Shown in pieces: positions 9,229-24,986 of a stretch of 47,287 nt of DNA. The translations under genes were made by a program, and so were the position numbers. This DNA comes from Desulfobacteraceae bacterium (GTDB taxonomy: Bacteria; Desulfobacterota; DSM-4660; Desulfatiglandales; HGW-15). The notes below the pieces were generated by a model. That model had not been told where the DNA came from. It saw only the letters and a list, made by a program, of their open reading frames with translations, and made no database searches. Each line of letters opens with the position of its first letter. Position 1 is the stretch's first letter. Location: positions 1 through 47,287 of the forward strand of contig JASFEQ010000001.1 in the NCBI GenBank assembly GCA_050124735.1. The letters run 5' to 3'.

Positions 9229-10563
9229 ATGATGAATAGACATTTTTTTACTTTTTTAATAGGTATCCTGTTAGTCGCTATGGTTCTCGGCGGTAGCGCT
9301 AAGTCTGTAAGATCAGCACCCAAAGAAATCCTAATAGGCGGCACCGAGGCCCTGACGGGTCCTTATGCGGCTTTCGGCCAGGGTGTCTTTGGACTGAGGG
9401 CGGCTATCGAGGATATCAACAAAGAGGGTGGCGTATACGTAAAAGAGTTCGGAAAAAAAATACCTCTCAAATTAATTGTCCGCGATAACCAGAGCGATAT
9501 GCTCAAGGTGGCGAGTCTTACCGAGCAGTTGATTGTCGGCGAAAAGCTCCACTTCCTTGTAGAGGCTCTGACTCCACCACATGTGCGCCAAGGTGCGGCT
9601 ACGATGGCTCAAAAATATAAGATCCCTTATGTTACGGGCGTCGGCCCTTTTGAATCCTGGCAAGGGATACGAGAGGCCATTACGCCGGCTTGGCAATATA
9701 CTTGGGCTTATGGGTTTGCCATAGGCACGCCTCCTCCAAAAGATGATTTTCGACATGGTAAACAAGGATATTTAATGGTGCCCACATGGTTCGGTGCCCT
9801 GGGTGCCTACGCCGACAGGACCAACAAGAAAGTGGCTGCCTTTGGCGCCGATGACCCGGACGGTAGAAATTGGTACATGGCATTTACGGGGCTTGCGACA
9901 GATGCAGGGTATGATTGTTACCGTGCCAAGGACCAATTCGGCATATTCCCACCGGGTACGACCAACTTCACGTCCATCATACGGGAGTGGAAAAAATATG
10001 GGTGTGAAATACTCTGGGGCAATAGTCCTGCCCCTGATTACGCGATTTTGTGGCGACAATCCCGGGCCATGGGTTTTAAGCCCAAGATCGTTTTTGCCAC
10101 AAGGGCAGCCCTTTTCCCTCGTGATGTGGGAGCCTGGGGCGGTGACCTACCCCAGGCTGTCGGTATGGAAACTTTCTGGGATCCTTCTATTCAGAATGCG
10201 GCCGGTATTGGGGGCACCACCCCACGATCGCTGGCGGAACGATGGACTAAAAAGACCGGAGAGCCATTGAACCAGTCCATCGGCTGGTCTTATATGTCCG
10301 TGCAGGTAATCATTGATGCCATCACGAGAGCTGGTTCAATTGACCGAGAAAAAGTGAACAAAGCTTTAGCGGATACCGATTTGAAATCAATTTTTGGGCG
10401 TATCGTGTTTGATAAAAAGACACAGTTTCACCGCATGCACGTGGCATTTGGTCAGTGGCAGAAGACGGATAAACCATGGAAATGGGAGGCACCTATCGTC
10501 TTTTCATTTAACGAGGACATACCGGCGACGGCTAAAATGATTTTCCCCATGCCTTACGACTAA
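9229..10563 (+). CDS. ABC transporter substrate-binding protein, Liv/branched-chain amino acid type (family 4 SBP)
   Basis: 444 aa. Signal peptide MMNRHFFTFLIGILLVAMVLGGSA, RBS ggaaggaggg, and a periplasmic binding-protein fold pattern (IGGTEALTGPYAAFG). First gene of a five-gene Liv-type operon. Confidence 0.8.
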   Translation: MMNRHFFTFLIGILLVAMVLGGSAKSVRSAPKEILIGGTEALTGPYAAFGQGVFGLRAAIEDINKEGGVYVKEFGKKIPLKLIVRDNQSDMLKVASLTEQLIVGEKLHFLVEALTPPHVRQGAATMAQKYKIPYVTGVGPFESWQGIREAITPAWQYTWAYGFAIGTPPPKDDFRHGKQGYLMVPTWFGALGAYADRTNKKVAAFGADDPDGRNWYMAFTGLATDAGYDCYRAKDQFGIFPPGTTNFTSIIREWKKYGCEILWGNSPAPDYAILWRQSRAMGFKPKIVFATRAALFPRDVGAWGGDLPQAVGMETFWDPSIQNAAGIGGTTPRSLAERWTKKTGEPLNQSIGWSYMSVQVIIDAITRAGSIDREKVNKALADTDLKSIFGRIVFDKKTQFHRMHVAFGQWQKTDKPWKWEAPIVFSFNEDIPATAKMIFPMPYD

Positions 10564-10584
10564 AACAAGGATAGATAGATGAAA

Positions 10585-10617
10585 CAGGGCTTGGGCCACA
10601 CGCTGGCCTAAGCCCTG
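10585..10617 (+). terminator. intra-operon stem-loop after the SBP gene (possible attenuator or mRNA stabiliser)
   Basis: cagggcttgggcca-cacgc-tggcctaagccctg forms a 14-bp stem with one mismatch, 22 nt after the stop codon. Only a short TT follows. Confidence 0.35.
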
Positions 10618-10741
10618 TTCGATGTAGTGGAAGGGCAGGTAAACCTGTCTGAGCCTAGTTTAATAAAGAAATACGTTTGGCGGTGGCCGTTAACTTCGAG
10701 CCGGTGGACAAAGACAGACAAAGTGAAAGAGGGCTGGTGAA

Positions 10742-11467
10742 ATGGAAGTACCGATTCTTTCAGTAATAAAAGTAAATATGCATTTTGGAGGATTGGTCGC
10801 TGTTTATGATCTGAGTTTTGATGTTCAGGCGGGTGAAGTCCTGGGCCTGATGGGCCCAAACGGTGCCGGCAAATCAACATTGTTAAATATTATATCGGGT
10901 GTATACAAACCAACCCATGGAACCGTAAAGTTTAAAGGAAATCACATTACGACTCTGGCCCCGCATAGGATCTGCCACCTTGGAATTGCCAGAACGTTTC
11001 AGATCCCTCAGCCCTTTGTTAATCTAACGGCTCTACAAAACATCATGGTAGCGGCCGAATATGGAAGAGGCATTGGAAAAGCTGCGGCCGAAAGTGAGGC
11101 TATTAAAATACTTGATATGGTAGATCTTTTGGAAAAGAAAGATGTTTTCACCAGAGATCTGGCAGCGATAACTCTGAAAAGGCTTGAATTAGCGAGAGCT
11201 CTGGCCAGCAAACCAACATTAGTGCTGCTTGATGAGATGGCTGCGGGCTTAACCGAAGAGGAAACCCCGCGGCTGTTAGAGATCTTACAACGGGTGCGTG
11301 AAATGGGCATAACATATATATTGATCGAGCATGTTATGCGAGTAATGACCAAGGCGGTTGATAGGATTGTGGTCATGGATAAGGGCATGAAAATTGCCGA
11401 AGGATCACCTAATGAGGTGATGGAAGATAAGAAGGTCATTGAGGCCTATTTGGGTGCGTCTGCATAA
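10742..11467 (+). CDS. livG: ABC transporter ATP-binding protein, LivG-like
   Basis: Walker A GPNGAGKST, Walker B LVLLDEMAAGL, and the LivG-type C-terminus VIEAYLG. Confidence 0.85.
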   Translation: MEVPILSVIKVNMHFGGLVAVYDLSFDVQAGEVLGLMGPNGAGKSTLLNIISGVYKPTHGTVKFKGNHITTLAPHRICHLGIARTFQIPQPFVNLTALQNIMVAAEYGRGIGKAAAESEAIKILDMVDLLEKKDVFTRDLAAITLKRLELARALASKPTLVLLDEMAAGLTEEETPRLLEILQRVREMGITYILIEHVMRVMTKAVDRIVVMDKGMKIAEGSPNEVMEDKKVIEAYLGASA

Positions 11468-11518
11468 ACGGGAGATACTATTTAACATCGAAGTAAGATA
11501 GAGAAATATAGCCAGGAA

Positions 11519-12238
11519 ATGCCTGAGGAAACATTACTGAAAGTAAGCCATATAGATGCGTTTCATGGGAGCTTCCAAGCCCTGTGGGATGTATCCCTGT
11601 CAATTAAACCCACAGAAATTGTTGCTATTATTGGCGCCAATGGATCAGGTAAATCCACCCTTCTGGACACAATCTCGGGCCTAGTGCATCCGGCTGAAGG
11701 CGATATTGAGTTTGAGGGTAAGAATATCTCCGCATTGGAACCATTCCGGATAGTTGATCTTGGCATATCCCAAGTTCCAGAAGGAAGAAGGGTTTTCCCC
11801 GACCTGAGTGTTATGGAAAATCTATTTATTGGTTCATACAATCGTAAGGCAAGGTCCGATAAAGCACAAAATCTCAAACAGGTTCAACAGCTCTTCCCTG
11901 TGCTAAAAGCCAGAAAAACGCAACTGGCAAAAACACTGAGCGGTGGAGAGCAACAGATGTTAGCCATAGGCAGGAGCCTCATGTCCAGCCCTAAACTGAT
12001 GCTCTTAGATGAAATGTCCCTTGGCCTTGCTCCCATCATTGTGAATGAACTGTATAGGGTTTTGAGGGAAATTAGAGAAAGAGGCATTACTATTCTATTT
12101 GTAGAACAGAATGTAAGGCGAAGCCTCACAGAAGCGGACAGGGCCTATATTATGGAAACAGGGCGCATTGTTTTGAGCGGCAACGTAGCGGAACTCCGGG
12201 AGGAGGAGAAGGTAAAAAAGGCCTATTTTGGAGACTAA
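11519..12238 (+). CDS. livF: ABC transporter ATP-binding protein, LivF-like
   Basis: Walker A GANGSGKST, signature LSGGEQQMLAIGRSL, Walker B LMLLDEMSLGLAP, C-terminus KKAYFG. Confidence 0.85.
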   Translation: MPEETLLKVSHIDAFHGSFQALWDVSLSIKPTEIVAIIGANGSGKSTLLDTISGLVHPAEGDIEFEGKNISALEPFRIVDLGISQVPEGRRVFPDLSVMENLFIGSYNRKARSDKAQNLKQVQQLFPVLKARKTQLAKTLSGGEQQMLAIGRSLMSSPKLMLLDEMSLGLAPIIVNELYRVLREIRERGITILFVEQNVRRSLTEADRAYIMETGRIVLSGNVAELREEEKVKKAYFGD

Positions 12239-12260
12239 ACTCGAATAGGATGGATTGCAG

Positions 12261-13127
12261 ATGACCTTATTGGCTGATTTGTCTACACCGATAGTGATGG
12301 GTATTCTGTTGGGCGGGTTATACGCGGTCATTGCGTTAGGTCTTTCGCTGGTTTTCGGGGTGGTAAAGGAGATGAACATAGCCCACGGAGATCTGGTCAT
12401 ATTGGGCAGCTACCTTGCTTATACCATCATGACTTCTTTCGGCGTAGACCCTATTCTGAGCTTAATTATAGGGATGCCCCTATTTTTTGGGCTTGGGTTT
12501 GTTATCCAAAAATATCTTCTGAACCGTGCGTTTAAAATATCAATGGACGCCACCTTGATCATTGCTTTTGGCATATCTATTATTTTACAAAACACATACC
12601 AACTTATCTGGTCACCTATGTCCAGGGGTTTGACAACATCCTATGCCCTTAAAAGTTTTAGTGCCGGCCCATTTTTTTTCCCCTTCGTATATCTGTTAAA
12701 TTTTGTTGTGGCCATAGCCGTGATGATTTGCCTCCGTGAATTCCTCAGAAGAACATATCTGGGCGTGGCTATTAGGTCAGCGGCCCAAGACATGAAAGCG
12801 GCTCATCTGATGGGGATAAACACGAATCGAGTCTTCGCATACACCTTCGCTATTGGTATGGTGCTGGCTGCTGTTGCTGGTGTACTTCTTGGATTGACTT
12901 TTCCCTTTACACCCACATCAGGACTGCCCTTCCTCATCATTGCCCTTGGTGTTGTGGTATTGGGGGGTATGGGTAGCATAGCCGGGACATTAATAGGGGG
13001 TATCGCCTTTGGCTTAGCGCAAACCCTTGGTGGACATTTCTTTGGTGTTGCTGCTCAGATGCTCGTTGCTTACACAATGGTACTTGTCGTACTAGCTGTG
13101 ATACCTCGAGGTATATTTGGCCGTTAG
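12261..13127 (+). CDS. livH: ABC transporter permease, LivH-like
   Basis: Polytopic membrane protein with a LivH-type pattern (LGLSLVFGVVKEMNIAHGD; C-terminal GGMGSIAGTLIGG). The ATG at 12261 is preferred over the TTG at 12255. Confidence 0.8.
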   Translation: MTLLADLSTPIVMGILLGGLYAVIALGLSLVFGVVKEMNIAHGDLVILGSYLAYTIMTSFGVDPILSLIIGMPLFFGLGFVIQKYLLNRAFKISMDATLIIAFGISIILQNTYQLIWSPMSRGLTTSYALKSFSAGPFFFPFVYLLNFVVAIAVMICLREFLRRTYLGVAIRSAAQDMKAAHLMGINTNRVFAYTFAIGMVLAAVAGVLLGLTFPFTPTSGLPFLIIALGVVVLGGMGSIAGTLIGGIAFGLAQTLGGHFFGVAAQMLVAYTMVLVVLAVIPRGIFGR

Positions 13128-13134
13128 GAGGAAC

Positions 13135-14112
13135 ATGAAAGCCACCATTCCTCGACAACATGGGAAGTTAATACTGCAAATAGCGGTCATCGCTTTGCTG
13201 GCCCTGTTTCCGATAATAGGAGTGCCACGCGCTTGGACCCTTTACCTCTTTCTCTTTTTTAATTATTTGGCCATGGCGAATATGTGGAATTTGCTTGCTG
13301 GTTACAGTGGGCTCATATGTCTGTGTCCCGCGGCCTTTATTGGGCTGGCGGGATACACCCTAACCATAATGACATGGCTGGGCGTGCCTTACTATTTCGG
13401 AATAGCATTTGGTGGCATTGTAGCAGCATTATTTGCCATACTCATATCTATTCCTGTCTTCAGGCTGAGAGGGATCTATTTCGCTATCGGAACACTCGTT
13501 GTACCTGAAATATTGAGGTTCGTGTTTTTGCTTTGGAAACCCGTTGGCGGGGACACATTTGGCAGAGGTGCGGGTTATTCGGTGAAAGGGCTTGATGGGA
13601 CATCCGAATCGCATCTCTATTGGTTTGCTCTGGCTATTGGGATTGTATCAATTTTCCTCATGCGATATATCTTGCGTTCAAAACTGGGAAGGGGGCTGGC
13701 TGCGATCCGTGATAACGATGATACAGCTGCAAGTTGTGGGATCAACGTCTTCAACTTAAAGTTGTACTCCTTTGTCATTGCCGCCCTCATTACAGGAATA
13801 GCCGGGGCAATTCTATATATCTACCATGGATATATTGAGCCGGCAAGCGCCTTCAGTATAGGGTGGCTAGTCACGATCATACTCGCCACTGTTATAGGAG
13901 GGGAAGGCACCGAAGAGGGACCGATAGTAGGAACGATTATCGTTGTATTTTTGCACTTCCTACTCGCCCGATATGCTGAAATTAGCCTCATCATACAAGG
14001 TATCATATTGATCAGCATTATGTTGCTGGCACCTCAAGGTATTATGGGTTTCGTTCGCAAGACCAAGACTTACCAGTCCCTGTTAGAATTAGTCGCCAGG
14101 CCTGCGAGTTAA
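13135..14112 (+). CDS. livM: ABC transporter permease, LivM-like
   Basis: Polytopic protein with a LivM pattern (NLLAGYSGLICLCPAAFIGLGAY; RDNDDTAASCGINVF). The ATG at 13135 follows the aggagg RBS at 13126-13131. Confidence 0.8.
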   Translation: MKATIPRQHGKLILQIAVIALLALFPIIGVPRAWTLYLFLFFNYLAMANMWNLLAGYSGLICLCPAAFIGLAGYTLTIMTWLGVPYYFGIAFGGIVAALFAILISIPVFRLRGIYFAIGTLVVPEILRFVFLLWKPVGGDTFGRGAGYSVKGLDGTSESHLYWFALAIGIVSIFLMRYILRSKLGRGLAAIRDNDDTAASCGINVFNLKLYSFVIAALITGIAGAILYIYHGYIEPASAFSIGWLVTIILATVIGGEGTEEGPIVGTIIVVFLHFLLARYAEISLIIQGIILISIMLLAPQGIMGFVRKTKTYQSLLELVARPAS

Positions 14113-14245: not shown

Positions 14246-14274
14246 TTGACAACATTTTTGTGAGGTTAGATATT
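14246..14274 (+). promoter_or_regulatory. candidate sigma70 promoter TTGACA-N17-GATATT behind an A9 tract
   Basis: aaaaaaaaatTTGACAacatttttgtgaggttaGATATT lies about 225 nt upstream of the ppsA-like start, in an AT-rich 387-bp intergenic region. Confidence 0.4.
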
Positions 14275-14499
14275 TAATCTTGTTTTTAGTTAGCGGGGCA
14301 GCGTGATCACAATTCCTGTTCGTCACGTCCAATCCTGGTCTACTTCACGTTATCTGATATCAGAATCTCGTTCCCTGTTGATATATACCGCTCATCTTCT
14401 TTTCTGACCCACTTTGCGTATGTTTGTTCTTTTTATCCTTAAAATCGTTACTTATTGGATCAATGATTACATAAACCTTTGACAAAAGGAGGGATAAAA

Positions 14500-16359
14500 A
14501 TGGCAGAGGAAAAAGCAGGAAGGTTTCCGGATCCGCACGAGTTTCAAGCTCCACCTGAGCTTGAAGGCTGGGAAGAGATGTACCCATCCCACTACCTATT
14601 CTCAAAGGACAGAGAAGATTGGGAAAAAGGTCAATTCTGGTATCAAGACAAGATACACGCGCCAGAGCCCATGCCCCCATTGGACCTGATCTTCCAGGAG
14701 GCGTGGCAGATCGCTCTCTCGCAATACACCACCAGGGTATTCTGCATCCCACCTGCCCAAGGGATCGCACATAGGATGGTTGGGTGCTACATGTATATCA
14801 GTGCCCTTGCGCCACCGCCAGACGAGATCATCGGTGAGAAGGCCCAACTCTTTGAGAAGAGGGTCTTCTATGTATTTGAGCACTATGATGAACTGTGGGA
14901 CAAATGGCTGACCAAATTCAAGGCCTTAGGCGAGGAGATGGAAGCCGTGAAGGTTCCACAGGAACTTCCCAAATTCGTTCCCGAAGAGGAGGTACTACCC
15001 GCACCTAAAGGCTACTATGTGACCTATGACCTTATCGAGGCCTTTGACAAACTGGTCAATCAAATGTTTAAGGGCTGGCAGTATCATTTCGAGATGCTCA
15101 ACCTGACCTATCTTGCCTATCTTATGTTCGCCGATGTGTGCAGGAAGCTTTTTCCGGGAATTAGTGAGAGCGCAATCGGCAAGATGGTGGCCGGGGCCTA
15201 TGTGTCCATGTTTCGTCCAGAGGAGGAACTCTGCCGTCTGTCCAGATTGGCGCGTGACTCACGCGGTGTGGCGGATATTCTCAAAAAGGATGTCTCCGTG
15301 AAGGATAAGATAAAGGAATTGAACAAGATCCCCGATGGCAAAGGGTGGCTTGAGGAATATGATAAGGCCACAGACCCGTGGTTCTATGTATCTTGCGGAA
15401 GTGGCTGGTTTCATTATGAAGGAAGCTGGATCACGATGCCTGAGGTCCCTTATACCTATATCAAGAGCTATTTAGAACGTCTAGATAACGGAGAAAACAT
15501 CGAGCGCTCCCTGGATGAGATCGAGAAACAGAGGGATCAGATCGTTAAAGAATACGTGAACCTCATAAAGACGGACGAAGACAAGAAGTCTTTCAACGAC
15601 GCCTACAACACCATTCGAACCATTTACAAGTATGCGGAGGACCACCTCTTCTGGGTTGAGCACTGGTTTCACACCATATGGTTCCGAAAAATAAAGGAAC
15701 TTGGAAGCCTCCTTGTCAATAATGGGATGCTCAATGAAGTGGACGACATATTTATGTTCAACCGCTATGAAATTCCTCAGCTCCTCAGCGAGCTGGCAAT
15801 CGGTTGGGCGTTGGGCGTGGATGTGCCCACCAGAGGTCAGTACTATAAAACCACGGCTCAAAAGCGAAGAAAGATTCTTGAGGCGGCGAGCAAGTGGAAT
15901 CCCATACCTGCCTTAGGTGTACCGCCCGAAGAAGTGGCCGAGCCTTTCACCATCATGCTTTGGGGTATTACCACGGACAAAGTGAAAGAATGGCTCAAAG
16001 GTGTGGAAGCACCAGCGACTGAAGATGTCTCAGAGCTCAAGGGGTTTGCCTCTTCGGCGGGCGTTGTTGAGGGCCCGGCACGGGTACTCAAGCTGCTTGG
16101 GGAGATTTTAGATCTTCAACCCGGAGAGATAATGGTCTGTCCCAATACCAACCCCTCATGGGCTCCCGTGTTTGGGAAAATCAAGGCTGCGGTTACGGAC
16201 ATCGGTGGGCTGACCTGCCACGCGGCTATTGTGTGCAGAGAATATGGTGTCCCCTCAGTGACCGGTACGGGTGTTGCCACGTCGGTCATCAAGACCGGCG
16301 ACATTTTAAGGGTCGATGGTGACACGGGTGTGGTCACCATTGTGAAAAGAGCAGGGTAG
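14500..16359 (+). CDS. PEP-utilising-enzyme swivel-domain protein, phenylphosphate-synthase alpha (PpsA)-like
   Basis: The C-terminal 100 aa carry the mobile phosphohistidine domain (GGLTCHAAIVCREYGVPSVTGTG), which nearly matches the PEP-utiliser His signature. The N-terminal ~500 aa are not a PEP/pyruvate TIM barrel. The ATG at 14500 follows the aaggaggg RBS. Confidence 0.7.
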   Translation: MAEEKAGRFPDPHEFQAPPELEGWEEMYPSHYLFSKDREDWEKGQFWYQDKIHAPEPMPPLDLIFQEAWQIALSQYTTRVFCIPPAQGIAHRMVGCYMYISALAPPPDEIIGEKAQLFEKRVFYVFEHYDELWDKWLTKFKALGEEMEAVKVPQELPKFVPEEEVLPAPKGYYVTYDLIEAFDKLVNQMFKGWQYHFEMLNLTYLAYLMFADVCRKLFPGISESAIGKMVAGAYVSMFRPEEELCRLSRLARDSRGVADILKKDVSVKDKIKELNKIPDGKGWLEEYDKATDPWFYVSCGSGWFHYEGSWITMPEVPYTYIKSYLERLDNGENIERSLDEIEKQRDQIVKEYVNLIKTDEDKKSFNDAYNTIRTIYKYAEDHLFWVEHWFHTIWFRKIKELGSLLVNNGMLNEVDDIFMFNRYEIPQLLSELAIGWALGVDVPTRGQYYKTTAQKRRKILEAASKWNPIPALGVPPEEVAEPFTIMLWGITTDKVKEWLKGVEAPATEDVSELKGFASSAGVVEGPARVLKLLGEILDLQPGEIMVCPNTNPSWAPVFGKIKAAVTDIGGLTCHAAIVCREYGVPSVTGTGVATSVIKTGDILRVDGDTGVVTIVKRAG

Positions 16360-16363
16360 AAGA

Positions 16364-17476
16364 ATGACGGAGCGATGCTCCGAAGGTCCAATGATGGAGA
16401 TCCATATGGATTACATCCTTAACTTTGAGAAGGTGGACAAGGGTTCACTTCCGTTGGTGGGTGGCAAGAATGCCAGTCTGGGAGAGATGATCAAGGCTGG
16501 CATTCGGGTCCCACCCGGATTTGCCGTGACCACAGAGAGCTACCTGAATTTCATAACCGAGACAGGAATCAAAGATAAGATCTATCGTATCCTTTCTGAC
16601 GTTAACCCTGATGACGTGGAATCTCTCAATAATGTAGCGGCCGAAGTTCGAAACTTGATCAACAGCACCTCCATGTCGGAGGATGTTCAAGCAGCCATAG
16701 AAGAGGGTTACTCTCAGCTTTGTGAGAAGTGCCGTGTTGAAGTTGTGCCTGTGGCAGTTCGCTCCAGCGCCACAGCTGAAGATCTGCCCACAGCCAGCTT
16801 TGCTGGGCAACAAGAAACTTATCTCTGGGTTCAAGGGGCAGCTCAGGTGGGTGACAGCGTTCAGAAGTGCTGGGCAAGCCTATTTACACCCCGCGCCATC
16901 AGTTACAGGATCAAGAATAATTTTCCCCACGAAAAGGTGTTGATCAGCGTGGGGATACAGGAAATGGTCAACTCCAAGGCAGCAGGTGTGATGTTTACCA
17001 TTAACCCCACCGATGGTGACCCATCGAAGGTGGTCATTGAAGGGAGTTGGGGACTGGGCGAGACAGTCGTGTCAGGGTCCGTAAACCCTGATAAATTTGT
17101 TGTAGACAAAGTGCTCCTGGAGGCCAGCGAAAAGACCATATCGAACAAGCACATTGAATGTATCTTTGACCCAAGCAAGGGAGAAGTGGTCAACGCGGAT
17201 GTGGATCCCAACAGGCAGGATACATGCTGCATAGAGGAGGAGGAGATAAAGGCGCTTGTAAAGATGGGGAAAGAGATTGAAGCCCATTACGGGCGTGCTA
17301 TGGATATCGAGTGGGCCATTGATAAGGACATGCCTTTTCCGGAGAACATGTTTATTGTTCAAGCCCGTCCAGAGACCGTGTGGAGTCAGCGGGAGAAGGA
17401 ATCCGTTCTCGGCAAAAAGAGTGGATATGAGCTACTGATGGAAAAGGCATTATCCACGATAAAGGTCAAATCCTAG
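16364..17476 (+). CDS. PEP synthase/PPDK N-terminal ATP-grasp domain protein, PpsB-like
   Basis: LPLVGGKNASLGEMIKAGIRVPPGFAVTT...VAVRSSATAEDLPTASFAGQQETYL...MDIEWA is the typical nucleotide-binding domain of PEP synthase. The start is uncertain; ATGs at 16391, 16394 and 16406 are alternatives. Confidence 0.75.
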   Translation: MTERCSEGPMMEIHMDYILNFEKVDKGSLPLVGGKNASLGEMIKAGIRVPPGFAVTTESYLNFITETGIKDKIYRILSDVNPDDVESLNNVAAEVRNLINSTSMSEDVQAAIEEGYSQLCEKCRVEVVPVAVRSSATAEDLPTASFAGQQETYLWVQGAAQVGDSVQKCWASLFTPRAISYRIKNNFPHEKVLISVGIQEMVNSKAAGVMFTINPTDGDPSKVVIEGSWGLGETVVSGSVNPDKFVVDKVLLEASEKTISNKHIECIFDPSKGEVVNADVDPNRQDTCCIEEEEIKALVKMGKEIEAHYGRAMDIEWAIDKDMPFPENMFIVQARPETVWSQREKESVLGKKSGYELLMEKALSTIKVKS

Positions 17477-17634
17477 ATACGAAAGAAGGCCGCTGGAGCC
17501 ACAAGGAGGATATCTGCGCTAAAAATCAGGGAGATAACCCGTCGATTATGGGCGCTCCAACGTATTCTTAAAGATGTAGAGATTAGAAAGAGGCATATCA
17601 TTTTTGGAACTTAATTTTTAGAAAGGAGAAGGAC

Positions 17635-19038
17635 ATGAAAGACTTGAGGGATTTTATTGCCAAATGCGAAGAGGAGGGACAGCTTCACAGGATCAAAGCG
17701 GAAGTAGACTGGGATCTGGAGCTCTCCCACATTGCCAAGCTCAATGAGGAGAAAAAGGGACCCGCTCTCCTCTTTGAGAACGTAAAGGGCTCTGAATGGC
17801 CCATTATCACCAGCACCTGCACGACCACGGAAAGGCTCGCCATGATCATGGGTATGCCCAAAGAGACCCCTCTGGTTGAGATCATGAGGCATTGGGTGGA
17901 AATAGGGAGCAGGAAGATCCCGCCCAAGTTGGTAAAGACCGGACCGTGCAAGGAAAACAAGATCACGGGGGACGAGATTGACCTGTTTAAATTTCCCGTG
18001 CCCAAGTTTTTTCCCAGGGATGGGGGGCGTTATTTCGGGACAGCCCACGCCGTGGTTACCAAAGACCCGGACTCGGGCTGGGTCAACTTGGGGACCTACC
18101 GGCTCCAGCTGCTCGAGAAGAATATCCTGGGGACCCAGTTCATCAAGGGAAAACACTCCGATATCATGCTCAAGAAGTACCAGGCCATGGGCAAACCCAT
18201 GCCGGTGGCCGTCATTGTGGGCACGGATCCCATCATGTTCGTCATGGGCGGCGCCAGGTTCTCCGCATTTGAGTCGGAGTATGATCTGGCCGGCTCAATC
18301 CGCGGCGAGCCCATCGAGGTGGTTAAGTGCGAGACCAACGACCTGATCGTCCCTGCCGGGACGGAAATCGTCGTGGAGGGCGAGGTGGACGCTGATGAGT
18401 TTATAGATGAAGGGCCTTTCGGCGAATACACGGGCTACTATTCGGGGGTGGGATCTAGCCCACGGAATTTTATCAAGGTCAATTGCGTCACCCACCGGAA
18501 CAACCCCATCTTCATGGCCACGACGGTGGGCCGGGCCGTTACCGACACCCACATGTGCCTGTCCCTTGCATACGGCGCCACCCTGTGGCAGCAGCTTAGT
18601 GACATGAGGATTCCCGGAATCAAGGCCGTTTACTGTCCTCCGGAGGCAGCGGGAAGGTTCATTGCCATCATTTCTGTGACACAGATGTATCCGGGCCATT
18701 CAAATCAGGTCTTAACCGCGGCCATATCCACCGAAATGGGGGCTTACGGCCTCAAGACCGTTATCGTGGTGGACGACGACATCGATCCCTGGGACATTCC
18801 CAGGGTCTTGTACGCCCTGGCCTTCCGGAATCAACCCAATCGCGCCCAGATCATTCAGCGGGGTCGGTCCACGCCCCTGGATCCTTCCCTGCCCATTGAC
18901 CAGCGGTGGATAACGGGCCGTCTCCTCATTGATGCGACTATTCCCTATGATTGGGAAAATAAGCCTATCAGAATCGAGCTCGATCCTGAAATGGTCAAAA
19001 AAGTCCAGGCCCGCTGGAGCGAACTGGGACTTGAGTAA
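17635..19038 (+). CDS. UbiD-family prenylated-FMN-dependent (de)carboxylase
   Basis: 467 aa with UbiD hallmarks (DLRDFI...CEEEGQL, EGPFGEYTGYYSG). RBS aaaggagaagg. Confidence 0.85.
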   Translation: MKDLRDFIAKCEEEGQLHRIKAEVDWDLELSHIAKLNEEKKGPALLFENVKGSEWPIITSTCTTTERLAMIMGMPKETPLVEIMRHWVEIGSRKIPPKLVKTGPCKENKITGDEIDLFKFPVPKFFPRDGGRYFGTAHAVVTKDPDSGWVNLGTYRLQLLEKNILGTQFIKGKHSDIMLKKYQAMGKPMPVAVIVGTDPIMFVMGGARFSAFESEYDLAGSIRGEPIEVVKCETNDLIVPAGTEIVVEGEVDADEFIDEGPFGEYTGYYSGVGSSPRNFIKVNCVTHRNNPIFMATTVGRAVTDTHMCLSLAYGATLWQQLSDMRIPGIKAVYCPPEAAGRFIAIISVTQMYPGHSNQVLTAAISTEMGAYGLKTVIVVDDDIDPWDIPRVLYALAFRNQPNRAQIIQRGRSTPLDPSLPIDQRWITGRLLIDATIPYDWENKPIRIELDPEMVKKVQARWSELGLE

Positions 19039-19059
19039 CCACAAACGGACGCGGACCAA

Positions 19060-19102
19060 GACAGGCTTTATTCGGCCGAGACTCGGCCGAATAAAGCCTG
19101 TC
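19060..19102. other. perfect 43-bp palindrome (21-bp arms, 1-nt centre); stem-loop, possible terminator or protein site
   Basis: gacaggctttattcggccgag-a-ctcggccgaataaagcctgtc lies 22 nt after the ubiD-like stop. No U-tract follows. Confidence 0.6.
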
Positions 19103-19143
19103 CCGCTCAAATGAAGGTTATGGGTGAGTAAGGAGGCCAGATC

Positions 19144-19653
19144 ATGTCGGATGAAAACATATTGGCGGGCAAGAAAATCCTCATCGTGGATGATGAGCCT
19201 GATGTTTTGGATGTTTTGGAGGAACTACTCTCCATCTGCCATGTGAAAAAGGCTTCCACTTTTGATGAAGCCAGCAAGCTCCTGGAAGCAGAGGATTTCG
19301 ATTTGGCGATTTTGGATATTATGGGTGTTGACGGCTACAAGCTCCTGGACATGGCCAAGAAAAGGAACATAACGACCGTCATGTTGACCGCCCACGCATT
19401 CAGCCCTGACAATCTCGTGAAATCCATAAAAGAAGGAGCCGATTCTTACCTCCCCAAGGAGGAGATGAAAAATATTACGACTTTCTTGGTCGATATATTA
19501 AACGCCAAAAAAGAGAAGAAAAGTCCATGGGGTCCTTGGCAGGAGCGGTTGCCCTCCTCCTATTTTGAAAAGAGATGGGGGGCCGCGTGGAAGGATAATG
19601 ACAAGGAATTTTGGGAGAGATTCAGGGCAAGTATTAAAGCCAGGAAATCCTAA
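19144..19653 (+). CDS. stand-alone CheY-type response-regulator receiver with a Trp-rich C-terminal tail
   Basis: Acidic pocket IVDDEPD, phospho-acceptor D in LAILDIMG, T in VMLTAH, K in YLPK. The ~50-aa tail (SPWGPWQERLPSSYFEKRWGAAWKDNDKEFWERF) has no recognisable output domain. Confidence 0.8.
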   Translation: MSDENILAGKKILIVDDEPDVLDVLEELLSICHVKKASTFDEASKLLEAEDFDLAILDIMGVDGYKLLDMAKKRNITTVMLTAHAFSPDNLVKSIKEGADSYLPKEEMKNITTFLVDILNAKKEKKSPWGPWQERLPSSYFEKRWGAAWKDNDKEFWERFRASIKARKS

Positions 19654-19679
19654 TCACTTCTTAAGTTGGGAGGTTAGCC

Positions 19680-20936
19680 ATGGGGATTGCAGTGGTTGGC
19701 ATGCTTGATGAGCGGGAAGAGGGCCTGAGCATAATTAAGGAACACATAGAGAGACGTGGACATAAAGTGATCTTGATCGATATCACCATGGGTACGGGTG
19801 CGATCACGTCCTCCCTACAAGCGGAGATCTCCTGCGAAGACCTGGCTAAAGCGGGTGGAACAACCATAGATGCGATCAAGGAGATGCTGGCCAAAGAGAG
19901 AGACAAAGCCACGTCGATCATGGCGACAGGCCTGGGTAAGAGGTTGGTCGATCTTTACCAGGCCGGCGAATTGGAAGGGATTATAGCTGTCGGCGGCATG
20001 ACGGGGACATTCATCACCCTCTCTGCCATGAAACAATTGCCATTCGGAATGCCTAAGGTCCTCATCTCGAGCGTAGCGGCCATGCCAGCCTATGCAAAGA
20101 AGCTGGCGGAGTATTTTGGGGTCAGAGATATCACTGTGATGCACAGTGTGGTTGATACGGTGGGCCTAAATCCCCTGGTGAGGAATCTGATGGCGAATGG
20201 CGCTGGTGCCATATGCGGTATGGTTGAGGAATTGGAACCATCCCCAGAGGCAGAAAAACCCTCTATTGCCATCACCGAATTTGGCTTCTGCGACAAAGGG
20301 GCCCATTATGTAAGAGAACTCCTGGAAGAGGATTACAATATCATCTCCTTCCATGCCACCGGACTGGGGGAGAAGGCGGCCGTGGACCTGGTCAGCCAAG
20401 GCTTATTCGAGGCATTTATCGACCTAGTTCCGGGCGGTTTCAGCGAATTTCTCCTGGGAGGAAATCGTGCTGCAGGCCCGGACCGCTTGGATGCCGGTAT
20501 AAATCAGGGCAAACCCTATATCCTCTCACCATGCGGATTTGATATGATCAGTTGTGGGCCTATACAGAGAAGAGATGAAGGTGACCCCCTTTGGGTCTCC
20601 CGCAAGCTGGCAGAGAGGAAACTTCTACTTCAGGATGCCATGAGGGTCCAGGCCAGAACAAGTCTGGAAGAAATACACACCATTGCGCGAGCTGTGGCTG
20701 AAAAACTGAACAGGCATGAGGACAAAAAGCTGGTCAAGTTTGTCATCCCGACCCAGGGTTTCTCCTCGATCAGTGTAAAGGGAGGTGCCTTATATGATCC
20801 GGACTTAGACCGGGCCTTTATTGATGAACTGAGAAAGAATTTGGATCCCGAAATAGAAATCATAGAGGTTGAGACCCACATCAACACACCGGAATTTGGT
20901 AGATCCGTTGTGGAGGCCCTCAAGCAGATTCTGTGA
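19680..20936 (+). CDS. UPF0261 / Tm-1-like ATP-binding domain protein
   Basis: 418 aa. The pattern VGMLDEREEGL...GHKVILID..., GIIAVGGMTGTFITLSAMKQLPFGMPKVLISSVA, FHATGLGEKA and HINTPEF matches the UPF0261 family as I recall it. Confidence 0.65.
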   Translation: MGIAVVGMLDEREEGLSIIKEHIERRGHKVILIDITMGTGAITSSLQAEISCEDLAKAGGTTIDAIKEMLAKERDKATSIMATGLGKRLVDLYQAGELEGIIAVGGMTGTFITLSAMKQLPFGMPKVLISSVAAMPAYAKKLAEYFGVRDITVMHSVVDTVGLNPLVRNLMANGAGAICGMVEELEPSPEAEKPSIAITEFGFCDKGAHYVRELLEEDYNIISFHATGLGEKAAVDLVSQGLFEAFIDLVPGGFSEFLLGGNRAAGPDRLDAGINQGKPYILSPCGFDMISCGPIQRRDEGDPLWVSRKLAERKLLLQDAMRVQARTSLEEIHTIARAVAEKLNRHEDKKLVKFVIPTQGFSSISVKGGALYDPDLDRAFIDELRKNLDPEIEIIEVETHINTPEFGRSVVEALKQIL

Positions 20937-20993
20937 ATGAAGACAATGTTAGTGAATGATAGATAACTGAACAAGGAAAGAGAAGGTCTTGTT

Positions 20994-21554
20994 ATGTCAA
21001 AACGCATTGTGATTGGAATATCAGGGGCAAGCGGCGTGATTTATGGGATAAAAATGCTCAATCTTCTTCAGGAAAAGGACTTTCAGACCCATCTCATTAT
21101 CTCCGAATCCGGAAGGCAGAACATTGAGATTGAGACGAGCTACAAGGCCGATGAGGTGGCTGCCATGGCCGACTATACGTATGACAACAGGGATGTGGGC
21201 GCCGCTCTCGCCAGCGGCTCATACTTAACCGAAGGTATGGTGGTTGTTCCGTGTACCATAAAGACACTATCCGGGATTGCCAATTCTTACACAAACAACC
21301 TCCTCGTCAGGGCGGCTGATGTGACTTTGAAAGAAAAGCGGAAACTGGTTCTCATGGTGAGAGAAACGCCACTCCACGTGGGCCACCTCAGCCTTATGAT
21401 GAAGACCGCCAACATGGGGGCCCACATTTTGCCACCCATACCCTCTTTCTATCATAAACCGAAAAGCATTGACGATATTATCCACCAAACCATAGGGAAG
21501 ATCTTTGATTACATAGGGATAGAGCACAATCTGTTCAAAAGGTGGGGCGAGTAA
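20994..21554 (+). CDS. ubiX: flavin prenyltransferase UbiX
   Basis: IGISGASGVIYGIKML, VVPCTIKTLSGIANSYTNNLLVRAADVTLKEKRKLVLMVRETPL. 186 aa. Confidence 0.9.
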   Translation: MSKRIVIGISGASGVIYGIKMLNLLQEKDFQTHLIISESGRQNIEIETSYKADEVAAMADYTYDNRDVGAALASGSYLTEGMVVVPCTIKTLSGIANSYTNNLLVRAADVTLKEKRKLVLMVRETPLHVGHLSLMMKTANMGAHILPPIPSFYHKPKSIDDIIHQTIGKIFDYIGIEHNLFKRWGE

Positions 21555-22423: not shown

Positions 22424-22450
22424 TGGGCCGCCCCTTCATTCTTAATTTGA

Positions 22451-23488: not shown

Positions 23489-23604
23489 ATAATTTCCGTT
23501 TTTTGTTCTTGCATTCCCTCTGGTTCATTGTGAGGCGAGAGATCCAAGTCATTGGGGAGAGTACTGACACCCAGGGCCTTCCAAACGTTTCACACCGGAC
23601 TCAT

Positions 23605-24555: not shown

Positions 24556-24986
24556 TACGCCACCTTGGCTCTTTTCTTGATGAGGTATTTCGCGGGGCCC
24601 AGAGTTTTCACTTCCTCTGTGATGGCCTGCGCCACTTCAACAAATTTTGTGGCCTCGGCGGAAGATATCCAGGAGAAATGGAGCCTGCCCGCTTCGATGC
24701 CGATATGTTCCAAAAGCCCTTTCAATAAAGCGAATTTCCTTCGCGCGTAGTAATTACCCTCCAGGTAATGGCAGTCCCCTGGGTGTCACCCTGAAACCCA
24801 CACACCGTCTGATCCCTGCCGGAAGGCGGCCAGTATAAACTTAGGGCTTACCCGGCCAGAACAGGGAACCCTGATCATCCTAAAATTGGGGGGGTATTGA
24901 AGACGGCTCACACCAGCCAGGTCTGCCGCACCATAACTGCACCAGTAACAGAGAAAAGTCGTAATTTTTGGTTCCCAATCGTTCAT
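24555..24986 (-). CDS. mvhD: MvhD/FlxD-like 2Fe-2S protein, predicted selenoprotein (in-frame UGA at 24786-24788)
   Basis: MNDWEPKITTFLCYWCSYGAADLAGVSRLQYPPNFRMIRVPCSGRV...DGVWVSG-[UGA]-HPGDCHYLEGNYYARRKF...LGPAKYLIKKRAKVA. The UGA replaces the Cys of the conserved GC-x-x-GDCHY motif. The frame stays open for 76 more codons and ends in TAATG with the next gene. RBS ggggaga precedes the ATG at 24986. Confidence 0.8.

What the first reader, a model, noticed from the sequence alone, without database searches (positions are those of the whole stretch)
14246..21554. Split Pps-like dikinase, single UbiD and UbiX in an operon with an embedded CheY receiver and a Tm-1/UPF0261 protein: candidate undescribed ATP-dependent aromatic carboxylation module
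Seen in the sequence: six co-directional genes sit behind one AT-rich promoter region.
- A 620-aa protein whose only recognisable part is a C-terminal PEP-utiliser swivel His domain (GGLTCHAAIVCREYGVP).
- A ~360-aa PEP-synthase-type ATP-grasp protein (VGGKNASLGEM).
- A UbiD-family enzyme (EGPFGEYTGYY).
- A receiver with all phospho-relay residues and a Trp-rich tail.
- A UPF0261/Tm-1-like ATP-binding protein.
- UbiX.

Established knowledge: a split PpsA/PpsB dikinase feeding a UbiD-like carboxylase is the logic of phenylphosphate synthase/carboxylase (Thauera aromatica, Geobacter metallireducens). It is also the logic of the phenylphosphoamidate route for aniline (Desulfatiglans anilini).

Inference: this version differs from those systems.
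- It has no PpsC, no PpcC phosphatase-like subunit and no PpcD-like small subunit.
- It has only one UbiD paralog.
- It has a dedicated prFMN synthase.
- It has two extra genes never assigned to such systems.

The Tm-1-like protein normally partners a PEP-hydrolase-like TIM barrel, so it could be an accessory or stimulatory component of the dikinase. The receiver could gate activity post-translationally. The substrate is unknown.
Basis: partly seen in the sequence, partly recalled or inferred. Interest (0 to 1): 0.78.

Follow-up and report, generated by a model that had tools for sequence, protein, structure and literature searches.

The report
Anaerobic phenol-activation operon with unassigned kinase-like partner
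The six genes are a strict-anaerobe version of the known pathway that phosphorylates and then carboxylates phenol, not a new module, but one of them belongs to a distinct, unstudied branch of a newly recognised phenol-kinase family that is encoded next to the carboxylase gene in several bacterial phyla.

Summary
Six co-directional genes at 14500-21554 encode a PpsA-like swivel-His protein, a PpsB-like ATP-grasp protein, a UbiD, a stand-alone receiver, a UPF0261 protein and UbiX.

"Undescribed module" is not supported. The UbiD passes NCBI's phenylphosphate carboxylase beta model. The same six Pfam families sit in the published phenol cluster of Desulfatiglans anilini, where a UPF0261 protein and a small receiver are phenol-induced but have no assigned function.

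What is new is the comparative result:
- The window's UPF0261 belongs to a distinct clade with invariant changes from MarK, the only characterised family member (an ADP-forming phenolic kinase, 2025).
- In 42 of 43 UbiD-linked loci from Desulfobacterota and Chloroflexota, this clade is encoded directly after the UbiD, or with one gene between.
- In about 12 Acidobacteriota loci it sits next to a biotin carboxylase that is also flanked by a MarK-like kinase.
- A separate kinase is found in nearly every locus with enough flank.

I infer that it handles the aryl phosphate at the carboxylation step, as the Thauera delta subunit does. A second, cheaper phenol kinase is the main rival.

The receiver is a lineage-restricted accessory, present in about one third of loci.

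The parts
14246..14274 (+). Promoter-like site TTGACA-17 nt-GATATT in the AT-rich 387-bp gap between the ABC permease gene and ppsA. It would give a leader of about 225 nt.
   Evidence: 10 of 12 matches, the best site in the region, but the count of sites is not above shuffles. Sequence. No Rfam family matched anywhere in the window at gathering score.
14500..16359 (+). PpsA-like component of a two-component small-molecule dikinase (619 aa). It has a C-terminal swivel phospho-His domain (His574) and a 500-aa N-terminal domain that belongs to the PRK08296 family.
   Evidence: PF00391, 84 bits, residues 547-617. NF006153, 864 bits against a cutoff of 578, full length; the best PDB hits are rifampin phosphotransferases 5FBS/5HV1, in the swivel domain only. 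No PEP/pyruvate TIM-barrel domain was found in this protein or in PpsB.
16391..17476 (+). PpsB-like ATP-grasp (nucleotide-binding) component of the dikinase. The ORF opens at 16364; a public gene call on an identical contig starts at the ATG at 16391 (361 aa).
   Evidence: PPDK_N, 407 bits; matches only the N-terminal third of PEP synthase models (427 bits against a cutoff of 598); gene call of 361 aa.
17635..19038 (+). UbiD-family (prFMN-dependent) carboxylase of the phenylphosphate carboxylase beta type. It is the only UbiD gene in the window.
   Evidence: TIGR02724 phenyl_P_beta 506 bits against a cutoff of 469; phenyl_P_alpha 219 against 565; VdcC 341 against 650; three UbiD domains. PDB relatives are UbiD decarboxylases.
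19144..19653 (+). Stand-alone CheY-like receiver (169 aa) with a conserved Trp-rich C-terminal tail (WQERLPSSYFEKRWGAAW...FWERFRASIKAR). It is an accessory regulatory component.
   Evidence: Response_reg, 53 bits. D16, D17, D58, T82 and K105 present, and the tail conserved in 18 homologues; present in 12 of 43 UbiD-linked loci, at variable positions.
19680..20936 (+). UPF0261 / Tm-1-like / MarK-family protein of a distinct 'clade 1' (418 aa). It is a conserved partner gene of aryl-phosphate carboxylases.
   Evidence: both UPF0261 domains. MarK 9MPY at E=1.8e-41; the model matches only Tm-1 and MarK over the full length; clade signature residues; synteny.
20994..21554 (+). UbiX flavin prenyltransferase, the prFMN synthase for the UbiD.
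   Evidence: NF004685, 261 bits against a cutoff of 188. Flavoprotein, 144 bits. UbiX present in 17 of 21 well-flanked related loci.
9229..14112 (+). Liv-type ABC importer directly upstream (binding protein, two ATPases, two permeases). This is context and a possible uptake system; its link to the operon is unproven.
   Evidence: The same arrangement lies upstream of ppsA in L002, with 70-82% identity. Transporters of this type are also near the cluster in L020, L027, L075 and L081.
7209..8156 (-). LysR-type regulator gene interrupted by one in-frame TAA (7704-7706). LysR is the most common accessory gene of related clusters.
   Evidence: LysR is present in 15-16 of 24 related loci. It is 61% identical to the LysR of L006.

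Best explanation
The six genes are an operon for ATP-dependent activation and para-carboxylation of phenol, or a close phenolic or anilinic analogue. It belongs to an uncultured strictly anaerobic Desulfatiglandales-like bacterium with a benzoyl-CoA-reductase-like gene set next door.

Proposed steps:
1. PpsB (ATP-grasp) and PpsA (swivel His574 plus a substrate-binding N-terminal domain) form a two-component dikinase. It makes the aryl phosphate from ATP, giving AMP and Pi.
2. The single PpcB-type UbiD, loaded with prFMN made by UbiX, carboxylates the ring.
3. The UPF0261 protein belongs to a separate clade of the MarK phenolic-kinase family and is a core partner of the carboxylase. It keeps the His/Gly pair that MarK uses to hold the phenolic oxygen, but has an altered nucleotide site and pocket. 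My committed reading is that it binds the aryl phosphate and removes or transfers the phosphoryl group at the carboxylation step. That is the job of the HAD-type delta subunit in Thauera, which this operon lacks.
4. The receiver with its conserved Trp-rich tail is a lineage-restricted regulator.

Status of each step: family assignments and synteny are shown. Substrate identity, the direction of phosphoryl transfer by the UPF0261 protein, and any physical complex with UbiD are inferred.

Confidence split: pathway identity about 0.85; UPF0261 being functionally part of the module about 0.85; the specific delta-like role about 0.35. The overall figure of 0.55 weighs these together.
For: Family assignments:
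- The UbiD is above the phenyl_P_beta cutoff. PpsA is in the PRK08296 family. Neither PpsA nor PpsB has a PEP-utilizers_C domain, so the pair is not a PEP synthase.

Context in the window:
- An AFOR, Fer4_11, HdrA/HdrC-like and MvhD-like gene set plus an IclR regulator lie at 21.6-33.1 kb.

Synteny:
- 38 of 39 loci with at least 63% identical UPF0261 and enough flank carry a UbiD. The median gap from UbiD to UPF0261 is 72 bp.
- The adjacency holds in 42 of 43 UbiD-linked loci, through three different placements of ppsAB, in Desulfobacterota and Chloroflexota.
- PpsA plus PpsB are present in 20 of 21 well-flanked loci, and UbiX in 17 of 21.
- Clade members at 57-61% identity in about 12 Acidobacteriota loci lie directly before a biotin-dependent carboxylase, whose other flank is a MarK-like UPF0261 in most of them (9 to 11 of the 12, depending on the call). 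This copies the marK-acvCDEF operon, with the clade-1 protein where the phosphatase would be.
- So the clade travels with two unrelated carboxylase types, and where the flank is adequate a separate kinase is nearly always present.

Residues:
- Phenolic-oxygen ligands G195 and H219 (MarK numbering) are conserved.
- DTK becomes DER, G225 becomes D/E, H304 becomes Q, H348 becomes L/I, and there are two pocket cysteines. These changes are invariant or nearly so (41-44 of 44 sequences), apart from I/L at 348 and D/E at 225.

Literature:
- MarK is an ATP-to-ADP phenolic kinase.
- In Thauera the delta subunit is a phosphatase-family protein needed for phenylphosphate carboxylation.
- In D. anilini the delta homologue was not detected in the proteome, carboxylase activity could not be shown in extracts, and UPF0261 proteins are co-induced with the phe and ani clusters.
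Against: - No biochemical activity is known for this clade. The only family precedent (MarK) is a forward kinase.
- 5 of 24 related loci also carry a HAD hydrolase. In two Chloroflexi loci it lies directly after the UPF0261 gene, so the protein does not simply replace a phosphatase everywhere.
- The D. anilini UPF0261 proteins (403, 404 and 411 aa) were not among the 80 closest genomic relatives. They probably belong to other paralogue groups, so their proteomic induction supports the family, not this clade.
- In D. anilini two UbiD subunits alone converted phenylphosphoamidate in vitro without a UPF0261 protein.
- The window holds no 4-hydroxybenzoate-CoA ligase or 4-hydroxybenzoyl-CoA reductase genes, so the substrate is unconfirmed.
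- I could not get model coordinates, so the clustering of the signature residues rests on alignment to MarK only.
Confidence: 0.55

Rival explanations
1. The UPF0261 protein is a second, ADP-forming phenol kinase of the MarK type. It costs one ATP equivalent, against two for the AMP-forming PpsAB. The two could serve as a cheap low-affinity and a costly high-affinity route in an energy-limited anaerobe.
For: - It rests on the only demonstrated activity of the family.
- The phenolic-oxygen ligands are conserved, and Arg replaces the ATP-contacting Lys conservatively.
- The energy budget of phenol activation in sulfate reducers is an acknowledged problem.
Against: - The clade co-occurs with another dedicated kinase (PpsAB or a MarK-like protein) in nearly all well-flanked loci, and it sits next to the carboxylase gene rather than next to the kinase genes.
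- Many loci also carry canonical DTK/DSK paralogues that would fit the kinase role better.
- H304 is more than 90% conserved among MarK homologues but is Gln in 43 of 44 sequences of this clade.
- An acidic residue replaces G225, and Glu sits next to the Arg in the nucleotide motif.
Confidence: 0.3
2. One reading: a previously undescribed ATP-dependent aromatic carboxylation module. The Tm-1-like protein is a stimulatory accessory of the dikinase, and the receiver gates activity post-translationally.
For: - The operon lacks PpsC, PpcA and the gamma and delta subunits.
- No function has been published for the two extra genes. No paper in the searched library links UPF0261 or Tm-1-like proteins to these systems.
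Against: - The same six families are in the published D. anilini phe cluster.
- The UbiD is a PpcB equivalog.
- The clade also occurs without PpsAB, next to biotin carboxylases, so it is not a dikinase-specific accessory.
- The receiver is missing from about two thirds of related clusters.
Confidence: 0.08
3. The UPF0261 protein is a non-catalytic ATP- or ligand-binding protein. It might act as a sensor, or as a scaffold or chaperone for the carboxylase, in the way Tm-1 acts by binding rather than by catalysis.
For: - Tm-1 is the closest structural match (TM 0.73), and it works by ATP-bridged binding.
- The nucleotide motif is altered.
- Wild-type MarK with Glu at position 16 is nearly inactive.
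Against: The invariant polar and cysteine residues in the pocket region (E193, C197, D/E225, S285, C286, Q304) look like a maintained active site rather than a degenerate one. Gene position and tight spacing do not separate this reading from a catalytic subunit.
Confidence: 0.15
4. UbiD plus UbiX form a catabolic hydroxy-aromatic acid decarboxylase (Vdc/Bsd-like), and the neighbouring genes are unrelated.
For: UbiD enzymes are reversible. An ABC importer of the type that takes up aromatic acids lies upstream.
Against: - The VdcC model scores 341 against a cutoff of 650, while phenyl_P_beta passes.
- There is no VdcD-type small subunit gene.
- ppsAB is conserved with the UbiD in 20 of 21 well-flanked loci.
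Confidence: 0.05

Closest known systems
Phenol (phe) gene cluster of Desulfatiglans anilini DSM 4660, H567DRAFT_02049-02059/61 (Xie and Muller 2018; Xie et al. 2020)
   Same: It has the same six Pfam families: ppsA 02052, ppsB 02051, a single ppcB 02059, ubiX 02056, a UPF0261 02057 (and 02061), and a 175-aa stand-alone receiver 02050. The cluster has no ppsC and no ppc gamma or delta genes. The host is a strictly anaerobic Desulfatiglans-type bacterium with Bam-type benzoyl-CoA reductase. The UPF0261 protein and the receiver are phenol-induced in proteomes.
   Different: The window operon is compact, with no CoA ligase, hcr genes or AMP ligase interleaved. Its gene order differs, with the UPF0261 gene directly after UbiD and the receiver. 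The D. anilini UPF0261 proteins are 403-411 aa and were not among the closest 80 genomic relatives, so they probably belong to other paralogue groups. Orthology was not tested.
Phenylphosphate synthase PpsABC and phenylphosphate carboxylase PpcABCD of Thauera aromatica
   Same: A two-protein His-swivel/ATP-grasp dikinase feeds a UbiD-family carboxylase. The UbiD passes the PpcB equivalog model.
   Different: The window has no PpsC, no second UbiD (PpcA), no 10-kDa gamma subunit and no 18-kDa HAD-type delta subunit. It has a UPF0261 protein, a receiver and an operon-encoded UbiX instead.
MarK (Saro_1862) of Novosphingobium aromaticivorans, PDB 9MPY
   Same: The two-domain UPF0261 fold (E=1.8e-41 by sequence; Foldseek E=3.8e-29). 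The Gly/His pair that hydrogen-bonds the phenolic oxygen is conserved. It is encoded with a carboxylase that acts on an aryl phosphate.
   Different: About 26-30% identity. DTK becomes DER at the ATP site. H304 becomes Gln, H348 becomes Ile/Leu and G225 becomes Asp/Glu, and there are two pocket cysteines. The partner carboxylase is a UbiD, not AcvCDE. A separate kinase is present in nearly all related loci with adequate flank.
HpeHI / AcvAB / CreHI two-component aromatic dikinases
   Same: PpsA/PpsB homologues with a swivel His protein plus an ATP-grasp protein, forming AMP.
   Different: Those feed biotin-dependent carboxylases or oxidases in aerobes. Here the partner is a PpcB-type UbiD in an anaerobe.

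Membership tests
Phenylphosphate synthase (PpsAB[C]) | Alpha component of about 70 kDa with a C-terminal PEP-utiliser swivel domain carrying the phospho-His, and no PEP/pyruvate TIM barrel | tested here: met
   619 aa. PF00391 at residues 547-617, with His574. No PF02896 domain. NF006153 at full length, 864 bits against a cutoff of 578.
Phenylphosphate synthase (PpsAB[C]) | Separate beta component of about 40 kDa that matches the ATP-grasp N-terminus of PEP synthase | tested here: met
   PPDK_N at 407 bits. It matches only positions 4-345 of the PEP synthase model.
Phenylphosphate synthase (PpsAB[C]) | Stimulatory gamma component (PpsC, 24 kDa) | tested here: not met
   None of the 37 window proteins scanned against Pfam shows a CBS domain, and there is no candidate gene in the operon. 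It is also absent from the D. anilini cluster. The component is not essential in Thauera.
Phenylphosphate synthase (PpsAB[C]) | Catalyses phenol + ATP to phenylphosphate + AMP + Pi | not testable with these tools
   Needs an enzyme assay.
Phenylphosphate carboxylase (PpcABCD) | Beta subunit: UbiD-family protein matching TIGR02724 | tested here: met
   506 bits against a cutoff of 469.
Phenylphosphate carboxylase (PpcABCD) | Alpha subunit: a second UbiD paralogue (TIGR02723) | tested here: not met
   There is only one UbiD in the 47-kb window, and it scores 219 against 565 on the alpha model. A second UbiD occurs in only 2 of 43 related loci. The rest of the genome was not seen.
Phenylphosphate carboxylase (PpcABCD) | Gamma (10 kDa) and delta (18 kDa, HAD phosphatase family) subunits encoded with the UbiD genes | tested here: not met
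   The operon gaps (4-158 bp) leave no room for such a gene, and no HAD Pfam hit appears among the window proteins scanned. HAD genes are present in 5 of 24 related loci.
D. anilini-type phe cluster | Co-located ppsA, ppsB, a single ppcB, ubiX, a UPF0261 gene and a small stand-alone receiver | tested here: met
   Met at the Pfam-family level. Orthology of the UPF0261 and receiver genes could not be tested because the sequences were not retrievable.
D. anilini-type phe cluster | [quoted passage not shown] | tested here: not met
   No AMP-binding or xanthine-dehydrogenase-type proteins were found in the window.
MarK-type aromatic kinase (UPF0261) | Two-domain UPF0261 fold | tested here: met
   PF06792 plus PF23189. 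9MPY at E=1.8e-41. The model (pLDDT 82) matches only Tm-1 and MarK over the full length.
MarK-type aromatic kinase (UPF0261) | ATP-site Lys (MarK K16, Tm-1 K20) in a D-T-K motif | tested here: not met
   The motif is D10-E11-R12 in the window. It is D-E-R in 43 of 44 UbiD-linked clade-1 sequences and in all 9 Acidobacteriota-type ones.
MarK-type aromatic kinase (UPF0261) | Phenolic-oxygen ligands G195 and H219 | tested here: met
   G202 and H225 in the window. They are also conserved in Tm-1, so they are not specific to kinases.
MarK-type aromatic kinase (UPF0261) | Pi-stacking H304 (more than 90% conserved among MarK homologues) and ketone-binding H348 | tested here: not met
   Q318 and I364 in the window. 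The positions are Gln and Leu/Ile throughout the clade.
UbiX flavin prenyltransferase | Matches the UbiX subfamily models | tested here: met
   NF004685 at 261 bits against 188. TIGR00421 at 245 against 109.
Single-domain CheY-like response regulator | Receiver fold with the acidic pocket, phospho-Asp, Thr and Lys, and no output domain | tested here: met
   PF00072 at 53 bits. D16, D17, D58, T82 and K105 are present. The 50-aa tail has no Pfam match. No histidine kinase gene was found in the window.

The most novel reading that the evidence does not exclude
The clade-1 UPF0261 protein is a carboxylase-coupled aryl-phosphate:ADP phosphotransferase, in effect a MarK run backwards. The phosphoryl group put on phenol by PpsAB (or on hydroxyacetophenones by MarK-like kinases in Acidobacteriota) would then be a recyclable activating group, given back to ADP at or after carboxylation.

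This would halve the ATP cost of phenol activation. It would explain how sulfate reducers and syntrophs afford the pathway. It could also explain why phenylphosphate carboxylase assays without ADP failed in D. anilini extracts.

Thermodynamics make full recovery from phenylphosphate doubtful. That is my estimate and was not computed.
Probability: 0.1. Interest if true: 0.85.

Novelty: new variant of a known kind. Interest (0 to 1): 0.5.

Why it matters
In strict anaerobes the phenylphosphate carboxylase has not been fully reconstituted:
- Geobacter and Desulfatiglans lack the gamma subunit, and the delta subunit is missing or unexpressed.
- Activity could not be shown in D. anilini extracts.
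- The authors state that the four-ATP cost is hard to reconcile with a sulfate reducer's energy budget.

A conserved, carboxylase-adjacent member of the only recently characterised MarK family is an obvious, cheap-to-test candidate for the missing component.

The clade is very abundant in sediment metagenomes. More than 2,000 relatives scored E<=1e-30, and the best 120 are all at least 78% identical. Its function therefore bears on anaerobic turnover of phenolics in nature. It would also add a second activity or substrate range to a protein family found from bacteria to plants.

Tried and rejected
1. Retrieving D. anilini sequences to test orthology.
   - They were not among the 80 genomic loci kept.
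   - They were not in the top 120 homologues of the window protein or of a paralogue.
   - Matching by length and molecular weight from the proteome table gave no hit.
2. Reading Schleinitz 2009 (Geobacter) and Schuhle and Fuchs 2004 (Thauera): not held. What I say about Geobacter rests on other papers' summaries and on memory.
3. A leader RNA or riboswitch upstream of ppsA: no Rfam match.
4. Promoter and terminator scan: site counts are not convincingly above shuffles.
5. A prFMN-related role for the UPF0261 protein, such as DMAP supply or cofactor maturation. I rejected this as the main idea for two reasons. The clade also sits beside biotin carboxylases with no UbiD or UbiX. In Chloroflexi it stays with UbiD when UbiX is elsewhere.
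6. A PpsC-like dikinase accessory role. I rejected it for the same reason, since the Acidobacteriota operons have no PpsAB.
7. Stand-alone clade members in Syntrophorhabdales and Solirubrobacterales: their neighbours were uninformative.
8. Structure model: no coordinates were available to me, so I could not measure distances between the signature residues.
9. Naphthalene and phenanthrene carboxylase clusters: a different gene set, with several UbiDs plus ParA/MinD ATPases.

Full report
**1. Observation**

Pfam and NCBIfam give these assignments.

| Gene | Coordinates | Evidence |
|---|---|---|
| PpsA-like | 14500-16359 | 619 aa from the ATG behind a GGAGG. PF00391 covers only residues 547-617. 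The whole length matches NF006153 of the PRK08296 family (864 bits, cutoff 578). |
| PpsB-like | 16364/16391-17476 | PPDK_N, 407 bits. |
| UbiD | 17635-19038 | All three UbiD domains. |
| Receiver | 19144-19653 | Response_reg, 53 bits. |
| UPF0261 | 19680-20936 | Both UPF0261 domains. |
| UbiX | 20994-21554 | NF004685, 261 bits against 188. |

Neither dikinase protein has the PEP/pyruvate TIM barrel, so the pair is not a PEP synthase or a PPDK. The catalytic His is His574, and the receiver has D16, D17, D58, T82 and K105. Gaps between the genes are 4-158 bp, and a convergent gene follows UbiX. The same order occurs on other metagenome contigs.

The best promoter-like site is at 14246-14274, but such sites are not enriched over shuffles. 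No Rfam family matches anywhere in the window.

**2. What the enzymes are**

The UbiD passes NCBI's equivalog model for phenylphosphate carboxylase subunit beta (506 bits against 469). It fails the alpha model (219 against 565) and the VdcC model (341 against 650).

The closest solved relatives of PpsA are rifampin phosphotransferases, matched only in the swivel domain. The literature describes PpsA/PpsB homologues (HpeHI, AcvAB, CreHI) as two-component dikinases. In these the swivel His shuttles between an ATP-grasp protein and a substrate-binding domain.

**3. Surroundings in the window**

- Upstream is a Liv-type ABC importer (9229-14112).
- Further up is a LysR gene with one in-frame TAA.
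- Downstream on the other strand are an AsrB/HydG-like flavoprotein, an AsrA/HydB-like Fe-S protein, an FrhB-like protein, an MvhD-like protein with a probable selenocysteine codon, and an IclR regulator.
- After these come two HdrA-like proteins, an HdrC-like protein, and an aldehyde:ferredoxin oxidoreductase with a Fer4_11 partner.

This last set is the make-up expected of a class II (Bam-type) benzoyl-CoA reductase. I say that from my knowledge of that system; no specific model was available to test it. The closest named relatives of the window proteins come from Desulfatiglandales and Desulfobacteraceae MAGs.

**4. Is the gene set conserved?**

I searched one genome per GTDB species with the UPF0261 protein. 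This returned 80 loci at 49-82% identity, which I mapped with the window proteins.

- 38 of 39 loci with at least 63% identity and enough upstream flank carry a UbiD.
- 30 of those have the UbiD directly upstream, with a median gap of 72 bp.
- In 42 of 43 UbiD-linked loci the order is UbiD, then optionally one gene (the receiver or a second UPF0261), then this UPF0261.
- The adjacency survives three different placements of ppsAB: upstream on the same strand; divergent; and downstream in Chloroflexota (UbiD-UPF0261-PpsA-PpsB).
- In 21 well-flanked loci, PpsA plus PpsB occur in 20, UbiX in 17 and the receiver in 7.

So the UPF0261 gene is a core member of the cluster, and the receiver is an accessory of the closer relatives. 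The receiver's Trp-rich tail is more conserved than much of its receiver domain.

Other recurrent accessory genes in 24 loci:

| Accessory gene | Loci (of 24) |
|---|---|
| LysR regulator | 15-16 |
| Small LpdD homologue beside UbiX | 11 |
| HAD hydrolase | 5 |
| NUDIX hydrolase | 4 |
| AMP-binding ligase | 4 |
| Membrane protein | 6 (a second family in 3 more) |

The LpdD homologue is absent from the window.

**5. The UPF0261 protein**

Its closest solved relatives are MarK (9MPY, E=1.8e-41) and tomato Tm-1. A model with pLDDT 82 matches only these two over the full length. In 2025 MarK was shown to be an ATP-to-ADP kinase for the phenolic hydroxyl of acetovanillone and related aromatics. That was the first catalytic activity reported for the family.

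Clustering the 100-odd UPF0261 proteins in the loci gives several groups:
- clade 1, which holds the window protein;
- a MarK-like group;
- two main groups of paralogues, plus a few single outliers.

Clade 1 keeps G195 and H219 (MarK numbering), which hold the phenolic oxygen. It also has a set of differences, constant or nearly so:

| MarK position or motif | Clade 1 |
|---|---|
| D-T-K nucleotide motif | D-E-R |
| G225 | Asp/Glu |
| H304 | Gln |
| H348 | Leu/Ile |
| 193 | Glu |
| 197 and 286 | Cys |

H304 is reported as more than 90% conserved among MarK homologues. Clade 1 is therefore not a MarK orthologue.

**6. A second context for clade 1**

Clade-1 members at 57-61% identity in about 12 Acidobacteriota loci lie immediately before a two-gene biotin-dependent carboxylase. 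One gene encodes an HMGL-like/PYC_OADA carboxyltransferase fused to a biotinyl domain. The other encodes a biotin carboxylase. In most of these loci (9 to 11, depending on the call) the far side of the carboxylase is a MarK-like UPF0261.

This mirrors the marK-acvCDEF operon (kinase, carboxylase, phosphatase). The differences are that no HAD phosphatase was seen in the one locus I annotated (L070), and that the clade-1 protein sits beside the carboxylase.

Clade 1 thus accompanies two unrelated carboxylase types. Both types act on an aryl phosphate, assuming the Acidobacteriota carboxylase works like AcvCDE, which I did not test. Where the flank is adequate, another dedicated kinase is nearly always present.

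**7. What is already published**

The D. anilini phe cluster (H567DRAFT_02049-02059) contains:
- ppsB 02051 and ppsA 02052;
- ubiX 02056;
- a single ppcB 02059;
- CoA-ligase and hcr genes.

The proteome table of the 2020 paper shows three more relevant genes.

| Locus tag | Protein | Proteome behaviour |
|---|---|---|
| 02050 | 175-aa stand-alone receiver | Raised about 6- to 9-fold on phenol. |
| 02057 | UPF0261 | Area 2.5e9 on phenol, against at most 5e7 on other substrates. |
| 02061 | Third UPF0261 | Low and constitutive. |

The genes were drawn as unassigned arrows. No paper in the searched library connects UPF0261 or Tm-1-like proteins with phenylphosphate or UbiD systems.

The D. anilini proteins are shorter and were not among the closest 80 loci. 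They probably belong to the paralogue groups, and I could not test this.

The same papers record three open problems:
- Phenylphosphate carboxylase activity could not be shown in extracts.
- The delta homologue was not detected in the proteome.
- The energy cost is unexplained.

**8. Mechanism**

Shown:
- the family identities;
- operon compactness;
- conserved adjacency to the carboxylase;
- the clade signature.

Inferred, for the pathway as a whole: PpsAB forms phenylphosphate or an analogue. The PpcB-type UbiD, with prFMN from UbiX, carboxylates it.

Inferred, for the clade-1 protein:
- It handles the aryl phosphate at that step, which is the role of the Thauera delta subunit. I put this at about 0.35.
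- The main rival is that it is a second, ADP-forming kinase (about 0.3). That is simpler biochemically. It fits poorly with the near-constant presence of other kinases, the position next to the carboxylase, and the changed nucleotide motif.
- A non-catalytic binding role is possible (about 0.15).
- HAD hydrolases in 5 of 24 loci argue against a simple phosphatase replacement.
- The most novel reading is ATP recovery from the aryl phosphate. I give it about 0.1 because phenylphosphate is probably a poorer phosphoryl donor than ATP. That is my estimate and was not computed.

The receiver has no kinase partner in the window. Its role is unknown beyond regulation.

**9. Verdict**

- The claim of an undescribed module is not supported. 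This is the Desulfatiglans/Geobacter-style variant of a known system.
- The worthwhile residue is a distinct, abundant, carboxylase-linked clade of the MarK family. It has no assigned function and comes with a clear set of experiments.

Noticed in passing
window 7209-8156 (-): A LysR-type regulator gene is interrupted by a single in-frame TAA at 7704-7706, where the L006 homologue has Glu. LysR is the most common accessory gene of related pps-ubiD clusters. The presumptive regulator may therefore be a pseudogene here, or this may be an assembly error.
   Followed up: partly
window 24558-25115 (-): An MvhD/FlpD-like gene has an in-frame stop inside the motif G*HPGDCHY. This is probably a selenocysteine codon, so the ORF list truncates the protein at 109 aa.
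   Followed up: partly
window 26442-33144 (+) and 21581-25115 (-): The region holds two HdrA-like proteins, an HdrC-like protein, an AFOR (646 aa) with a Fer4_11 partner, and AsrA/AsrB-like, FrhB-like and MvhD-like genes plus IclR. This is the composition expected of a Bam-type (class II) benzoyl-CoA reductase module. An AFOR/Fer4 pair at 82-85% identity and an IclR lie beside the pps-ubiD cluster in L008 too.
   Followed up: partly
L058, L060, L063, L067, L068, L070, L072, L073, L074, L076, L080 (e.g. L070 9974-15912): An Acidobacteriota operon reads: clade-1 UPF0261, then carboxyltransferase/BCCP, then biotin carboxylase, then (in most loci) a MarK-like UPF0261. Two different UPF0261 proteins flank a biotin carboxylase, and no HAD phosphatase was seen in the one locus annotated (L070).
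   Followed up: partly
L002 11398-12588, L029 11889-13112, L021 5942-7201, L025 1891-3108 and others: Second UPF0261 paralogues (30-37% identical, with the canonical DSK/DTK motif) occur in 14 of the 43 UbiD-linked loci (16 proteins in the two main groups), often beside ppsAB or after ubiX. D. anilini likewise has three UPF0261 genes in its phe and ani clusters.
   Followed up: partly
L006 11257-11673, L043 11270-11761, L022 11955-12368 and 8 more loci: A small PF21758 gene beside UbiX in 11 of 24 related loci is a homologue of LpdD, the prFMNH2-binding chaperone (PDB 8PZH, E=5.6e-10). The window has no copy.
   Followed up: yes
window 19144-19653; L002, L003, L006, L010 and other loci: The receiver's 50-aa C-terminal tail (WQERLPSSYFEKRWGAAW.D.DKEFWERFRASIKAR) is nearly invariant across homologues at 61-86% identity and has no Pfam match. 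It is likely the output or interaction element of an undescribed single-domain response regulator family.
   Followed up: partly
L015 6690-7790, L017 1950-3092, L037 2902-4023, L065 2047-3147; L006 4917-6047: A Trp/Phe-rich multi-pass membrane protein of about 370 aa with no annotation recurs in 6 to 9 related clusters. It could be a phenol channel or transporter. The window has none.
   Followed up: no
window 9229-14112 (+): A five-gene Liv-type ABC importer sits directly upstream of the operon. It is syntenic in L002, and similar transporters lie near the cluster in L020, L027, L075 and L081. This could hint at an aromatic-acid or phenolic substrate that is imported.
   Followed up: no
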